From Escherichia coli (GTDB taxonomy: Bacteria; Pseudomonadota; Gammaproteobacteria; Enterobacterales; Enterobacteriaceae), in NCBI RefSeq assembly GCF_024502345.1, contig NZ_JALDNN010000001.1: a stretch of DNA of 64,000 nucleotides; one strand, written 5' to 3'. A program made the position numbers. Position 1 is the first letter of the stretch, and the number at the start of each line of letters is the position of its first letter. Below, piece after piece: positions 55,201 to 61,200 of this stretch.

Positions 55201-58200
55201 TCGCCGTTGTGGCTGTAGTGATACCAGTAGAGAAGAATCGAGCTAAGTGACGCCAGCAATTTGTCGGCAATATCCCGCGCGCCAGAGACGGTATGCCCCT
55301 CTTTTTCTGGCAGCGTGCAGCCGAGCGCGGAAACGCCGGTGCGCATAACATCCATCGGGTGTGACGCCGCCGGTAAGGCTTCCAGCACGGTACGCACGTT
55401 AGCCGGTAAACCGCGCAGGGCTTTCAGTTTCGTTTTGTAAGCGGCGAGTTCGTCACGGGTCGGCAGTTTGCCGTGGATCAGCAGATGCGCCACTTCTTCA
55501 AATTCGCAATGTTCCGCCAGATCAAGAATATCGTAACCACGGTAATGCAAGTCATTGCCACTTTTACCCACGGTGCAGAGCGCCGTATTGCCCGCCGGAA
55601 CGCCAGAAAGTGCTACCGATTTTTTCGGTTTAATGACATGGGTACTGTTTTGCAGGATCGTTGTGTCGCTCATATTGTCCTCGTCATTGTTATCATTTGT
55701 AGGGTCGAGATTGTTGTCGGATGCGACGCCATGCGTCTTATCCGACCTACAGTTCAGTACACCCGTAGGCCTGATAAGTCGCGTCAGCGGCGCATCAGGC
55801 ATCGGTTGTCGAATACAACCAACGGGCGTTTTTTATTTCACCTGGCTACGGGCAAACAGGTCGTCGAGCTTCTCTTCGTACTGGTAGTAGTTGATGCTTT
55901 CGTACAGCTCGTTGCGGGTTTGCATAGTGTCGATGACACTTTTCTGCGTGCCTTCCTGACGCAGGACGTTGTAGACATGTTCAGCGGCGCGGTTCATGGC
56001 GCGGAACGCTGAAAGCGGGTACAGCGCCATTGCGACATGGGCGCTGCGTAATTCGTCGGTGGTAAACAGCGGCGTGGCACCAAATTCGGTAATGTTGGCG
56101 AGGATTGGCACCTGCACCGCATCGGCAAACTGGCGGTACATGGCGAGTTCGGTAATCGCCTCCGGGAACAACATCTCGGCACCCGCTTCAACATAGGCCT
56201 GCGCACGCTCGATCGCCGCATCCAGCCCCTCTACCGCCAGCGCATCGGTGCGCGCCATGATCACAAAATCAGGATCGGTTTTCGCATCCACCGCTGCACG
56301 GATCCGATCCACCATCTCCTCTTTCGAGACGATCGCTTTGTTCGGGCGATGACCGCAACGTTTCGCGCCAACCTGATCTTCAATATGCAATCCTGCCGCA
56401 CCGGCTTTAATCATCGATTTCACAGTGCGCGCCACGTTAAAAGCCGAAGATCCAAAACCGATATCCGCATCCACCAGCAGCGGCAGCGAGCAGACGTCGG
56501 TGATACGGCGAATGTCAGTCAGCACATCATCAAGAGTAGAAATACCGAGATCGGGCAGCCCCAGCGAACCTGCCGCCACACCACCGCCGGAGAGATAAAT
56601 CGCCTGATATCCGGCACGCTGCGCCAGCAGCGCATGGTTAGCGTTGATGGTGCCGACAATCTGCAATGGATTTTCTTTAGTGAGTGCAGCGCGAAACGCT
56701 TTACCTGGAGAGTGTAGAGACATAGCCCATCCTTTGTTATCAACTTGTTATTTACGTTGATAAAGACAAAGCAAGGGGTGTGCCACAATTGCCTGAATAA
56801 AATTAAATGCTTAATTTCAATTTGTTAGAGATAAACCCATGAATTAATCCGCAAATATGCGTTTCAGTTAACGTTTCAGGCAATGTTTCACTGCGTTTCA
56901 TTGCAACAATTATGAAACAAGACTAAACCCACTATTCGGTTTCTTAACTTTGCGGTGCGCTATGGCACATCCACCACGGCTGAATGACGACAAACCGGTT
57001 ATCTGGACGGTATCTGTAACGCGGCTGTTCGAGCTGTTTCGCGATATCAGTCTCGAGTTTGATCACCTGGCGAACATTACCCCTATCCAGCTTGGCGGTG
57101 ATGCTGCCAACTTACTGATTTAGTGTATGATGGTGTTTTTGAGGTGCTCCAGTGGCTTCTGTTTCTATCAGCTGTCCCTCCTGTTCAGCTACTGACGGGG
57201 TGGTGCGTAACGGCAAAAGCACCGCCGGACATCAGCGCTATCTCTGCTCTCACTGCCGTAAAACATGGCAACTGCAGTTCACTTACACCGCTTCTCAACC
57301 CGGTACGCACCAGAAAATCATTGATATGGCCATGAATGGCGTTGGATGCCGGGCAACCGCCCGCATTATGGGCGTTGGCCTCAACACGATTTTCCGCCAT
57401 TTAAAAAACTCAGGCCGCAGTCGGTAACCTCGCGCATACAGCCGGGCAGTGACGTCATCGTCTGCGCGGAAATGGACGAACAGTGGGGATACGTCGGGGC
57501 TAAATCGCGCCAGCGCTGGCTGTTTTACGCGTATGACAGGCTCCGGAAGACGGTTGTTGCGCACGTATTCGGTGAACGCACTATGGCGACGCTGGGGCGT
57601 CTTATGAGCCTGCTGTCACCCTTTGACGTGGTGATATGGATGACGGATGGCTGGCCGCTGTATGAATCCCGCCTGAAGGGAAAGCTGCACGTAATCAGCA
57701 AGCGATATACGCAGCGAATTGAGCGGCATAACCTGAATCTGAGGCAGCACCTGGCACGGCTGGGACGGAAGTCGCTGTCGTTCTCAAAATCGGTGGAGCT
57801 GCATGACAAAGTCATCGGGCATTATCTGAACATAAAACACTATCAATAAGTTGGAGTCATTACCCGCTTTGTCGATCAGATCTCCGGCGGGCAGCAGCAG
57901 CGCGTGGCGCTGGCCCGCGCGCTGATCCTCAAGCCGAAAGTGCTGCTGTTTGATGAGCCGTTGAGTAACCTCGACGCCAACCTGCGTCGCAGCATGCGCG
58001 ACAAGATCCGCGAGTTGCAAAAGCAGTTTGATATCACCTCGCTGTACGTCACCCACGATCAGAGCGAAGCCTTTGCGGTTTCTGATACTGTGCTGGTGAT
58101 GAACAAGGGACACATCATGCAGATCGGCTCACCGCAGGATCTTTACCGCCAGCCCGCCTCCCGCTTTATGGCGAGCTTTATGGGCGATGCCAACCTGTTC

Positions 58201-61200
58201 CCGGCAACCTTCAGCGACGGATACGTTGATATCTACGGCTATCATCTGCCGCGCCCGCTGCACTTTGGTACACAGGGTGAAGGGATGGTCGGTGTGCGCC
58301 CGGAAGCGATCACGCTCAGCGATCGCGGCGAAGAGAGCCAGCGCTGCGTGATCCGCCATGTCGCCTATATGGGGCCGCAGTATGAAGTGACGGTGGAATG
58401 GCACGGGCAGGAGATATTATTGCAGGTCAACGCTACGCGTCTGCAACCGGACGTCGGCGAGCAGTATTATCTTGAAATCCATCCGTACGGCATGTTTGTT
58501 CTGGCGGATGCGGCATAACGTTTTGTGGTTTTGTAGGCCGGATAAGGCGCTTGTGCCGCCATCCGGCAATGCCTGATGCGCTGCGCTTATCAGGCCTACA
58601 ATGAACGATGTAGACCCGATAAACCCTCAGCTTCGCGCTTTTAACGCGGCGATATCCGCAGGCGTGGTGCGACAGCACCCGCCAATCAACCGTGCGCCAG
58701 CGGCCTGCCACTGCGGCAGATAATCCGCCAGCTGCGCGCAATGTTCACCGTGATGATGCCAGGTTTTGCTCACGGCATCGTAATGCTCGCCCGAGTTCGG
58801 ATACACCACCAGCGGCAGCACCGTTAAACCGTGTAAATGCTGCAACGCAGCGGTGGTGTTTTCCAGCGCAATACAGTTAATGCCTAGCGCCACCACCTGC
58901 GGATAACCCGCCAGCAACGCAACCACGTCACGCAGCGGCGTACCGTCGCTCAGGTGTTCGCTGTCGCGCAGGGTAAATGAGAACCACGCCCGCGCACGCG
59001 GATATGCGGTCAACAGCTCGGCCAACGCCTCAATCTCGGAAAAATTCGGCAGGGTTTCGCAGGCCAGCAGATCGGCCCCGGCATCCAGCAAGGCTTCCAC
59101 GCGCGGGCGATGAAACGCCTGAAATGCCTCAACGCTACAATGATAATCGCCACGGTATTCAGAGCCATCCGCCAGATACGCGCCGTAAGGCCCGACGGAT
59201 CCCGCCACCAGAAGCGTTCCCGCCTGCGGGTTCTCTGCCAGATACGCTTCACGGGCTTTACGCGCCAGCTCCACGCTTTTGCCAATCAGCGCTTTCGACT
59301 GCGCTTCATCCAGACCTCGCGCGGCGAAGCCCGCCGGCGTCGCCTGATAGCTGGCAGTGATCGCGCATTGCGCCCCCGCCCGGTAGTAATCAAGATGCAC
59401 TTCGCGGATAAGCTCCGGGTTTTCTACCAGCACTTTGGCTGACCACAGGCTGTCGGCTAAGTTACACCCTCGCGCTTCCAGCTCCGTCGCCATCGCGCCA
59501 TCCAGCAGCAGGATATCCTGTTTATCAAGAAGAGCGCGTAACGGATTATTCTGCGACATGTTCTGGCTCCTGTTTTGCGTTTCGGGGTTGAGTAAGGAAA
59601 TAAGCACCATAGCACAACGCAACAAACGGTAACCCGCACCACAACGCAATTCTCTGCGCTGGATCGAATGCCAGCCCAACACAGGCCACCAGGCACAGCA
59701 CAAAACCTAATACTGGCACCAGCGGATACCACGGCGCGCGATAATGTAATTCACTCAATGCCTTACCTTGTTGCAGATGACGGCGACGAAAAACAAAATG
59801 CGAGGCGCAGATACTCAGCCACACCGCTACCACCGCAAACCCGGAGATTGCCGACAGCGCAACAAATACCGTGTCCGGGGCCACCACGCTGGAAAACAGC
59901 GCCAGCACACCACCGAGCATACTGACCGACAGCGCCGTCAGTGGCACGCCGTTTTTCGTTACTCGCGCAAAACAGGCCGGTAGCGTACGTTCATTCGACA
60001 ACGACCACAGCATGCGCCCGGAGGCATATAACCCGGAGTTCGCTGCAGAAAGAATAGCCGTCAGGATCACGAAGTTAAAAATATCAGCGGCGTACGGGAT
60101 CCCTACTTTCTCAAATACCAGCACAAACGGGCTTTTCTCCACGCCCGCCTGCTGCATCGGGATCAGCGCTGCCAGCACAAACACGGTGCCGATAAAGAAA
60201 ATAATCAGTCGCGCGATGGTAGTACGAATCGCTACCGGGATAACTTTGCGCGGGTTTTCCGTTTCACCGGCGGCAATGCCGATAAGCTCGGTACCCGAAA
60301 AAGCAAAGTTCACTGCCACCATAGTCATCAAAATCGGTAAGCCACCGTGCGGGAACCAGCCTTCTGCCGTGATATTACTCAGCCCCGGCGCGGGCGAGCC
60401 ATCCTGCATCGGAATAAAGCCGAAAATCGCCGCCCCACCGAGGATGATAAAGGCGATGATAGTGACCACTTTGACCAGCGAGAACCAGAACTCCCCTTCG
60501 GCAAAAAAGCGCGTGGAGATAACATTCAGACCAAAAATAATCGCGCAGAACACCACGCACCAGACCCATACCGGCACCTGTGGAAACCAGTACTGCATAC
60601 AGAATCCAGCGGCGGTAAAGCTCGAACCCAGCGCCACGGTCCAGGTCAGCCAGTAAAGCCAGGCCACGGTATACCCGGTAGCCGGACCAAGATAGCGCGC
60701 GGCATAAACGTGAAACGCTCCGGTCTCCGGCATCGCGACCGACAGCTCGCCCAGACACTGCATAACCAGCCAGACCACCAGCGCACCAATCAGATAGGCC
60801 AGCAGCGTTCCCGCCGCTCCAGTGGTGGAAATGATGTACCCGGTATTGAAGAATAATCCTGTGCCAATCACGCCGCCCAAGGAAAGCATAATCAGGTGAC
60901 GCGTTTTCATTGTGCGCTTCAGTGGCGCATTTTGTTGTGTTGTTTGCATATAACCTTCTAAACGCATGGACATCTAAACATCCAAAGAAGGTTTGTTATA
61001 CCGCGTTTGTTAACAGAATGCAAAGTCAACCCTGCACCAGACGCAGATGCCCGCGCCGGGCGCTTAATAGCGGGTGGGGATTAATAATCAGATACAAAAA
61101 GGGCCGCCAGCTCATAACGCCTCCGTTGCCATGTTTTATCTAAACTTTGGCACCACAGTTGACTGACGGCGTTAACCCGGAAGTGGGAATCAAATCTCCC

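What the first reader, a model, noticed from the sequence alone, without database searches (positions are those of the whole stretch)
57865..58518. Two afuC paralogues in one window, one intact and one IS1-truncated
The 3' fragment after IS1 is about 92 percent identical in protein to the C-terminal half of the intact afuC at 24801..25859, with differences spread along the alignment. So the genome carries, or carried, two distinct afu loci. The fragment lacks the Walker A motif and is non-functional as an ATPase.
Basis: seen in the sequence. Interest (0 to 1): 0.45.

Follow-up and report, generated by a model that had tools for sequence, protein, structure and literature searches.

The report
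IS1-cut Citrobacter-derived afuC remnant
The truncated second afuC is real, but it is an ordinary dead leftover of a piece of Citrobacter chromosome (the same piece E. coli K-12 carries in its CP4-6 region), cut down by the insertion sequence IS1; it is not a diverged in-genome duplicate of the intact E. coli afuC.

Summary
Observation confirmed. Window 57865-58518 is the last 217 codons of an afuC gene and directly abuts a complete IS1 (57097-57864). It is 83.3% identical in DNA (545/654, no gaps) and 92.2% in protein to the 3' part of the intact afuC (24801-25859).

The interpretation needs correcting. The two are xenologues, not paralogues.
- The intact copy is the resident E. coli O-island-20 locus (fusRK, uhpC-like, afuABC), 98.9% identical to O157:H7 Sakai.
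- The fragment is 100% identical to K-12 afuC (b0262).
- With the adjoining mmuM, mmuP and a second mhpT-mhpE-mhpF, it is 98.5% identical and collinear to the Citrobacter portucalensis chromosome.
- No complete E. coli genome of 5,426 carries Citrobacter-type afuA or 5' afuB. A second intact afu operon is therefore not seen in E. coli.

The truncation fits IS1-mediated deletions. Compared with K-12's IS1B-afuB'-afuC, 753 bp are missing on one side. On the other side about 68 kb (K-12 coordinates) are missing, up to codon 45 of prpR. There is no target-site duplication. Nine genomes share the IS1/'afuC junction, each group with a different far flank. None shares the prpR junction.

Low interest: a known gene, a known mechanism, and a modest evolutionary footnote.

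The parts
57865..58518 (+). 'afuC: 3' remnant (217 codons plus stop) of the Citrobacter-type / K-12-type afuC (b0262 allele). Pseudogene lacking Walker A and the Q-loop.
   Evidence: 100% identical (654/654) to K-12 afuC nt 394-1047. 98.6% to C. portucalensis A60. NF008513 positions 132-350 only, 404.8 bits, below the 496 cutoff. Annotated 'TOBE domain-containing protein, incomplete' in the 9 genomes that share the junction.
57097..57864 (+). IS1 (IS1B-like), complete 768 bp with both terminal inverted repeats, insA (57152-57427) and insB' (57346-57849). No target-site duplication (left flank cagcttggc, right flank cgctttgtc).
   Evidence: 99.74% identical to K-12 IS1B and in the same orientation relative to afuC. 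Only copy in the window. Sequence read.
56962..57096 (+). prpR': the first 45 codons of the propionate regulator gene, cut by the left end of IS1 (K-12 coordinate 348309).
   Evidence: 96.8% match to K-12 prpB-prpR DNA ending at L094 position 3810. This junction is found in 0 of 5,426 complete E. coli genomes.
58627..60973 (-). mmuM (about 58627-59559) and mmuP (59546-60949/60973): S-methylmethionine utilisation genes, part of the same Citrobacter-derived block.
   Evidence: Window 57863-61125 is 99.94% identical to K-12 afuC-mmuM-mmuP up to the IS5A border. 98.5% to C. portucalensis.
61224..64000 (-). Second, Citrobacter-type mhpT (61224-62501), mhpE (62505-63518) and the start of mhpF, running off the window end. 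Continuation of the acquired block.
   Evidence: 80.0% and 83.2% identical to the resident mhpT and mhpE/F. 98.5% collinear with C. portucalensis and 91.7-91.8% collinear with C. youngae and C. braakii. In AH04 the same block runs to a truncated mhpA.
24801..25859 (+). Intact resident afuC, ATPase of the AfuABC sugar-phosphate ABC importer. Probable true start is 24813.
   Evidence: NF008513 699.2 bits, above the 496 cutoff. 98.9% regional identity to O157:H7 Sakai ECs_0413.
18067..24801 (+). Rest of the resident O-island-20-type module: response regulator (18067-18696), UhpB-like kinase (18696-20237), UhpC-like MFS sensor (20310-21626), afuA (about 21623-22654) and afuB (22672-24801). It lies between tauA and frmR.
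   Evidence: NCBIfam hits to UhpA, UhpB and UhpC families. AfuA matches PDB 4R72 at E = 1.5e-169. Same gene order as Sakai ECs_0418-0413. OI-20 and FusKR context from PMC4546632.

Best explanation
The fragment is a dead passenger. It is the 3' end of an afuC gene that came into E. coli on a piece of Citrobacter freundii-complex (C. portucalensis-like) chromosome, with native gene order afuB-afuC-mmuM-mmuP-mhpTEFDCBA. This is the same acquired block whose shorter form (IS1B-afuB'-afuC-mmuM-mmuP-IS5) sits in the CP4-6 region of K-12 and on many IncF plasmids. In this strain the IS1 at the edge of the block caused, or took part in, two deletions. One removed 753 bp rightwards: the afuB stump and the first 131 codons of afuC. 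One removed leftwards everything up to codon 45 of prpR, about 68 kb in K-12 coordinates. The remnant has no Walker A motif and no cognate AfuA or AfuB, so it does nothing as a transporter. The intact afuC 33 kb upstream is the strain's own E. coli-lineage gene in the O-island-20-type fusRK/uhpC-like/afuABC module, which imports sugar phosphates. The two regions are positional orthologues from two genera (tau-fusRK-afuABC-...-mhp in both) that now lie in one chromosome. Shown directly: the identities, collinearity, junctions and distribution. Inferred: the direction of transfer, the order and mechanism of the IS1 events, and the lack of function.
For: Identity to K-12: fragment 654/654, and the block to the IS5 border 99.94%. 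Citrobacter origin: K-12 AfuC is 100% identical in protein to C. portucalensis A60 and 98-99% to C. youngae and C. braakii, against 94% to the E. coli-type protein. Window 57865-64000 is 98.5-98.6% identical to L009. It forms one collinear HSP at 91.8% to C. youngae and 91.7% to C. braakii, with identity falling off across further Citrobacter species. NJ tree: fragment + K-12 + C. portucalensis at 100% bootstrap, and intact + Sakai + E. coli at 100%. Divergence is of between-genus type: dS 1.16 and dN/dS 0.04 for afuC, dS 1.29 and dN/dS 0.014 for the mhpE pair. Direction of transfer: Citrobacter holds the complete operon contiguous with the K-12 afuB' stump (98.9%), while no E. coli genome has Citrobacter-type afuA or 5' afuB. 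In E. coli the block is sporadic (476 of 5,426 genomes), IS-bounded and also on plasmids. IS1 deletions: the IS1 has the same orientation as K-12 IS1B and is 99.74% identical to it, with 753 bp missing and no target-site duplication. Nine genomes share the exact IS1/'afuC junction but have different left flanks: yahM, an L-lactate permease gene, mrkB. Another strain has IS1B abutting prpD'. Absence of a target-site duplication is the expected signature of adjacent deletion or IS-IS recombination (PMC11708052). Resident locus: 98.9% to Sakai OI-20. The tau-to-afuC stretch is collinear in Citrobacter and Klebsiella.
Against: Only one C. portucalensis genome was available, the species representative. 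It carries a 2.9-kb insert between afuC and mmuM that the E. coli copy lacks, so the actual donor is unidentified. The 98.5% identity does not exclude an unsampled close relative, or a plasmid intermediate that moved in both directions. The two IS1 junctions could equally result from recombination between two IS1 copies rather than transposase-driven adjacent deletion. The products are identical, and the order of events cannot be read from one genome. Lack of function is inferred from sequence. An in-frame GTG ORF of 204 codons (57904-58518) exists and expression was not tested.
Confidence: 0.85

Rival explanations
1. True paralogues: an ancient duplication of the afu-mhp region within the Escherichia lineage, with one copy later decaying (essentially the first reader's reading).
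For: Both copies lie in the same orientation in one chromosome, and the similarity extends over afuC, mhpT, mhpE and mhpF.
Against: The second copy is 98.5% identical to a Citrobacter chromosome and nests inside the C. freundii complex at 100% bootstrap. It occurs in only 476 of 5,426 E. coli genomes, is IS-bounded and is also found on plasmids. dN/dS of 0.04 shows both copies evolved under purifying selection, not decay after duplication.
Confidence: 0.03
2. Recent duplication or assembly artefact (the refutation scenario the reader named).
For: None.
Against: DNA identity is 83.3% with 109 substitutions. The same IS1/'afuC junction is independently assembled in 9 complete genomes.
Confidence: 0.01
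3. Same origin, different mechanism. A second IS1 inserted independently into afuC (and another into prpR), and RecA-dependent recombination between directly repeated IS1 copies deleted the intervening DNA. This would replace transposase-mediated adjacent deletion.
For: It gives exactly the same product: one IS1, no target-site duplication, hybrid flanks. E. coli strains of this group carry many IS1 copies, 24-40 IS1-containing places per genome. IS-IS recombination is a documented cause of missing target-site duplications (PMC11708052).
Against: No intermediate with an IS1 inserted in an otherwise intact afuC or prpR was seen. All 476 genomes either have K-12-like afuC or the one shared junction, and none has the prpR junction. 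The series of different left flanks around one fixed right junction is what serial adjacent deletions from one resident IS produce.
Confidence: 0.3
4. The remnant has been co-opted: a 204-217-aa protein (ABC signature, Walker B and TOBE domain) is expressed from IS1 read-through and acts as a regulator or as a dominant-negative partner of the resident AfuC.
For: An in-frame ORF is preserved. insB and the afuC remnant are in the same frame, separated by the insB stop and 5 codons. The remnant is 100% conserved relative to K-12.
Against: The 100% identity reflects recent common ancestry, not selection. PGAP calls it a pseudogene in all nine genomes, and one of them (CP52E) already has an internal stop. 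There is no recognisable ribosome-binding site or promoter evidence, and half of the nucleotide-binding domain is missing.
Confidence: 0.03

Closest known systems
E. coli K-12 afuC (b0262) / afuB' (b0263) remnant beside IS1B in the CP4-6 cryptic prophage region, with mmuPM
   Same: The fragment is 654/654 identical to it. It has the same neighbours mmuM and mmuP (99.94%) and the same IS1B-type element in the same orientation.
   Different: K-12 keeps full-length afuC plus 349 bp of afuB. Here a further 753 bp are gone. K-12's block is cut after mmuP by IS5A; here it continues into a second mhp cluster, the 'long form' found in 120 genomes including E. coli C and G3/10. On the other side K-12's IS1B abuts IS30B/ISX/yagB; here it abuts prpR codon 45.
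EHEC O157:H7 O-island 20 AfuABC sugar-phosphate ABC importer with FusKR (Sit et al. 2015, PMC4546632)
   Same: The intact locus at 18067-25859 has the same six genes in the same order between tauA and frmR. It is 98.9% identical to Sakai ECs_0418-0413. AfuA matches PDB 4R72 at E = 1.5e-169 and keeps the H-D...E sugar-binding residues by spacing.
   Different: This applies to the intact copy only. The fragment belongs to the orthologous Citrobacter version (82-85% DNA identity) and has no AfuA or AfuB partner.
Citrobacter freundii-complex chromosomal region tauABC-fusRK-uhpC'-afuABC-mmuMP-mhpTEFDCBA
   Same: Window 57865-64000 is collinear with it: 98.5% to C. portucalensis A60 and about 92% to C. 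youngae and C. braakii.
   Different: In Citrobacter the operon is complete and sits in conserved synteny. In E. coli only the part distal to an IS1 in afuB is present. Strain A60 has an extra 2.9-kb insert between afuC and mmuM.
IS1/IS-mediated adjacent deletions (classic IS behaviour; reviewed in PMC11708052)
   Same: The IS is retained, flanking DNA is lost from one end, and there is no target-site duplication. Related strains show a graded series of deletion end-points.
   Different: Nothing unusual. Only the particular end-points are strain-specific (prpR codon 45; afuC nt 393/394).

Membership tests
AfuC/FbpC-type ABC transporter ATP-binding protein (NCBIfam NF008513) | Full-length match above the curated cutoff (496 bits) | tested here: not met
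   The fragment scores 404.8 bits and covers profile positions 132-350 of 351 only. The intact copy scores 699.2 bits over positions 1-350. The fragment is a gene remnant of this family, not a functional member.
AfuC/FbpC-type ABC transporter ATP-binding protein (NCBIfam NF008513) | Walker A (P-loop) and Q-loop of the nucleotide-binding domain | tested here: not met
   The fragment starts at [20 protein letters not shown], at residues 42-49 of the intact protein, has no counterpart.
AfuC/FbpC-type ABC transporter ATP-binding protein (NCBIfam NF008513) | ABC signature, Walker B, H-loop and C-terminal TOBE-type domain | tested here: met
   [20 protein letters not shown] and the C-terminal 110 residues are present and aligned.
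K-12-type (CP4-6-associated) afuC allele | Near-identity to b0262 and linkage to mmuM-mmuP | tested here: met
   654/654 identical. The flanking 3.26 kb is 99.94% identical.
Citrobacter freundii-complex afuC lineage (xenologue) | Groups with Citrobacter sequences to the exclusion of E. coli-type afuC, with conserved Citrobacter gene order | tested here: met
   100% bootstrap with C. portucalensis. Collinear over 6.1 kb, and over 10.6 kb in AH04.
EHEC O-island 20 AfuABC sugar-phosphate importer (intact copy only) | Gene order fusR-fusK-uhpC-like-afuA-afuB-afuC between tauA and frmR, with high identity to O157 | tested here: met
   (98.9%). NCBIfam assignments.
EHEC O-island 20 AfuABC sugar-phosphate importer (intact copy only) | [quoted passage not shown] 2015) | tested here: inconclusive
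   The window AfuA has H229-D230 and E253 with the same 24-residue spacing, and matches 4R72 at E = 1.5e-169. Residue-by-residue alignment to 4R72 itself was not printed. Transport was not tested.
IS1 insertion sequence | 768 bp, terminal inverted repeats, insA and insB' with frameshift arrangement | tested here: met
   99.74% identical to K-12 IS1B over 768 bp. ORFs and ends read.
IS1 insertion sequence | 8-9 bp target-site duplication of a simple insertion | tested here: not met
   Flanks are cagcttggc and cgctttgtc. The flanks come from loci about 68 kb apart in K-12. This indicates deletion or recombination, not simple insertion.

The most novel reading that the evidence does not exclude
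The non-phage cargo of the K-12 CP4-6 region (afuB'-afuC-mmuPM) and the second mhp cluster of E. coli C, G3/10 and this strain are one captured fragment of C. portucalensis-like chromosome. That fragment is the positional orthologue of E. coli's own tau-afu-frm-mhp region. Some E. coli therefore carry two homeologous versions of one ancestral neighbourhood, and 'O-island 20' is an ancestral enterobacterial module lost from most E. coli rather than an acquired pathogenicity island. I found no paper stating this in four of the five literature searches. The MetJ-regulon paper notes only that mmuPM in E. coli is confined to K-12 strains within CP4-6.
Probability: 0.8. Interest if true: 0.3.

Novelty: already known. 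Interest (0 to 1): 0.2.

Why it matters
It matters little for biology at large. It explains a pseudogene and shows it is not evidence for functional divergence of two afu systems.

Its practical value is in annotation and strain history.
- The K-12 'afuC' and mmuPM genes can be labelled as Citrobacter-derived.
- In this strain only the O-island-20 AfuABC can import sugar phosphates.
- The same IS1 event has removed most of prpR, so the prpBCDE operon has probably lost its activator.
- The graded set of IS1 end-points across strains is a neat natural example of serial IS-mediated genome reduction around one resident element.

Tried and rejected
- I searched for any complete E. coli genome with the whole prpR'-IS1-'afuC structure. 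None was found, so the source strain or a close relative could not be identified. G3/10 shares the right junction but lacks the resident afu module.
- I looked for a Citrobacter-type afuA or 5' afuB in E. coli, to test 'carried two loci'. It is absent.
- I looked for plasmids carrying the long form with mhp genes, as a possible transfer vehicle. None covers more than 53% of the block.
- Literature searches for a prior statement of Citrobacter origin of CP4-6 cargo found nothing explicit.
- Base composition as a marker of foreign origin: block 2 is 58.1% GC against 53.6% for the resident block, and GC3 is 0.73 against 0.61 for afuC. This is not decisive, so I did not rely on it.
- A window-wide Rfam scan found only REP/BIME-type naRNA4 hits, unrelated to the finding.
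- I did not use structure prediction, the protein-database searches or metagenome scans. Near-identity to annotated genes made them unnecessary.
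Full report
**1. What is in the sequence**

The window is E. coli chromosome in the reverse of K-12 orientation. The gene order is:
- tauDCBA
- a six-gene module: response regulator, UhpB-like kinase, UhpC-like sensor, afuA, afuB, afuC (18067-25859)
- frmRAB, yaiL, mhpT-EFDCBA, mhpR, lacIZYA, cynXSTR, codAB, prpEDCB
- a 135-nt stump of prpR (56962-57096)
- a complete IS1 (57097-57864)
- the afuC fragment (57865-58518)
- mmuM and mmuP on the other strand
- a second mhpT, mhpE and the start of mhpF, running to the window end

The fragment aligns without gaps to 25206-25859. DNA identity is 545/654 = 83.3%. Protein identity is 201/218 = 92.2%.

The fragment starts at the ABC signature motif. It keeps Walker B, the H-loop and the TOBE-type C-terminus, but lacks Walker A and the Q-loop. 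Against NCBIfam NF008513 it covers profile positions 132-350 and scores 404.8 bits, below the 496 cutoff. The intact gene scores 699.2.

**2. Which copy is the K-12 one**

The fragment is 654/654 identical to K-12 MG1655 afuC (b0262) nt 394-1047. Window 57863-61125 is 99.94% identical to K-12 afuC-mmuM-mmuP, right up to the point where K-12 has IS5A. The intact copy is only 84.8% identical to K-12 afuC.

The intact copy and its surroundings (window 14000-38000) are 98.7-98.9% identical to O157:H7 Sakai, with the same order tauA / ECs_0418-0413 / frmR. That region is O-island 20. It holds the FusKR two-component system and AfuABC, which Sit et al. showed to be a hexose/heptose-phosphate ABC importer (PMC4546632). 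The window's AfuA matches the solved A. pleuropneumoniae AfuA (4R72) at E = 1.5e-169. It keeps an H-D pair and a glutamate 24 residues later, the spacing of the published sugar-binding residues.

**3. The second copy is Citrobacter DNA**

A self-comparison of the window shows the similarity does not stop at afuC. Region 61254-62500 matches the resident mhpT at 80.0%, and 62505-64000 matches the resident mhpE/F at 83.2%.

I scanned one genome per bacterial species with K-12 AfuC. The best hit was Citrobacter portucalensis A60 at 100% protein identity, followed by C. youngae (99%) and C. braakii (98%). The E. coli-type protein is 94% identical.

At DNA level, window 57865-64000 is 98.5-98.6% identical to the C. 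portucalensis contig. The order is the same, apart from a 2.9-kb insert in that strain. The same stretch forms a single collinear alignment at 91.8% to C. youngae and 91.7% to C. braakii, with lower values for more distant Citrobacter species. In strain AH04, which has the same block, collinearity with C. youngae and C. braakii runs 10.65 kb to a truncated mhpA.

A neighbour-joining tree of the 654-nt segment gives two well-supported groups:
- fragment + K-12 + C. portucalensis, 100% bootstrap, inside the C. freundii complex
- intact copy + Sakai + another E. coli, 100% bootstrap

Synonymous divergence between the two window copies is high and selection was purifying. For afuC, dS is 1.16 and dN/dS is 0.04. 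For the mhpE pair, dS is 1.29 and dN/dS is 0.014. This is what orthologues in different genera look like, not a decaying duplicate.

**4. Direction of transfer, and whether E. coli ever had a second operon**

Citrobacter species carry the complete module tauCBA-regulators-afuABC-mmuMP-mhp in conserved order. K-12's 349-bp afuB stump is 98.9% identical to the corresponding part of the complete C. portucalensis afuB.

In contrast, the C. portucalensis uhpC-like/afuA/5'-afuB segment has no match above 90% in any of 5,426 complete E. coli genomes. All 519 hits are the 80-90% O-island-20 type.

In E. coli the Citrobacter-type afuC is sporadic, present in 476 genomes with 44 copies on plasmids, and it is always IS-bounded. 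There are two forms:
- The short form, IS1-afuB'-afuC-mmuMP-IS5, is on more than 300 E. coli plasmids and on plasmids of other genera.
- The long form, with the second mhp cluster, is in 120 genomes including E. coli C, G3/10 and G5.

I therefore infer transfer from Citrobacter to E. coli of an already truncated, or immediately truncated, locus. 'Carried two afu loci' is not supported in the sense of two operons.

By inclusion-exclusion, only about 7-9 complete genomes have both afuC types: 986 genomes with either type, 517-519 with the resident type, and 476 with the Citrobacter type.

**5. How the truncation arose**

K-12 has IS1B-afuB'(349 bp)-afuC. The window has an IS1 that is 99.74% identical, in the same orientation, abutting afuC nt 394. 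So 753 bp are missing.

The IS1 has no target-site duplication. Its two flanks lie about 68 kb apart in K-12: the prpR side at coordinate 348309 and the IS1B side at 279931.

The exact IS1/'afuC junction occurs in nine complete genomes, but their other IS1 flank differs:
- yahM in G3/10
- an L-lactate permease gene in AH04, LHM10-1 and CP52E
- mrkB in CX12
- another arrangement in A30

A horse isolate with K-12-like afuC has IS1B abutting prpD'. The window's prpR junction occurs in no complete genome.

A fixed IS with variable, nested loss of neighbouring DNA and no duplication is the signature of IS-mediated adjacent deletions. Recombination between IS1 copies gives the same product (PMC11708052). 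I cannot separate the two mechanisms from one genome.

**6. Function**

The remnant lacks half of its nucleotide-binding domain and has no cognate AfuA or AfuB. It is annotated as a pseudogene wherever the junction occurs, and one strain already has an internal stop. I consider it non-functional. An in-frame GTG ORF (57904-58518) exists, and insB and the remnant share a frame, but there is no evidence of expression. Sugar-phosphate import in this strain should rest on the resident AfuABC alone.

**7. Verdict**

It is a xenologue from Citrobacter carried on a known, widely disseminated IS-bounded block, and it was cut by ordinary IS1 activity. The gene, the resident locus and the mechanism are all known. 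The Citrobacter origin and the positional orthology of the two regions are a modest evolutionary footnote that I did not find stated in the searchable literature.

Noticed in passing
window 61224-64000: A second, Citrobacter-type mhpT-mhpE-mhpF (80-83% identical to the resident mhp genes at 29130-32780) runs off the window end. The strain therefore probably carries two 3-hydroxyphenylpropionate catabolic clusters, as do E. coli C, G3/10 and about 120 complete genomes.
   Followed up: partly
window 56962-57096 and 51093-56723: prpR is reduced to its first 45 codons by the IS1. The prpBCDE operon is intact but has lost its activator, which predicts a propionate-utilisation defect.
   Followed up: partly
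window 30435-30779 and 50730-51068: Two tandem arrays of about 100-bp REP/BIME-type units: 101 bp x 3.4 between mhpT and mhpE, and 94 bp x 3.6 between codB and prpE. They match Rfam naRNA4 (RF02564). The copy number between mhpT and mhpE differs from Sakai and G3/10.
   Followed up: partly
window 17800-25900 versus G3/10 (L089 11964-15175) and K-12: The O-island-20 module occupies the tauA-frmR interval where K-12-like strains have yaiS'-yaiP-yaiX-yaiO. The tau-to-afuC stretch is collinear in Citrobacter and Klebsiella. The afu-bearing state therefore looks ancestral and the K-12 state derived, which is at odds with the 'island' label.
   Followed up: partly
L009 11053-13918 (Citrobacter portucalensis A60): A 2.9-kb strain-specific insert lies between afuC and mmuM. 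It encodes a 488-aa protein with a PAAR-like N-terminus and two small ORFs, possibly a toxin/immunity cassette. It is absent from the E. coli copy and from C. youngae and C. braakii.
   Followed up: no
L004 (E. coli AH04) 11054-30033: In AH04 the Citrobacter-type mhp cluster ends in a truncated mhpA next to IS fragments. These are followed by the locus of heat resistance (clpK, sHSP20, yfdX, kefB-GI and others) and then CP4-6-like genes. This shows how much unrelated cargo has accumulated in this island.
   Followed up: no
L093 (E. coli SWYHX138.261ft) 14225-15178: An independent IS1B-associated deletion reaches into prpD in a strain that also carries both afuC types. This suggests the IS1B at the edge of this block repeatedly erodes the yah-prp region.
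   Followed up: partly
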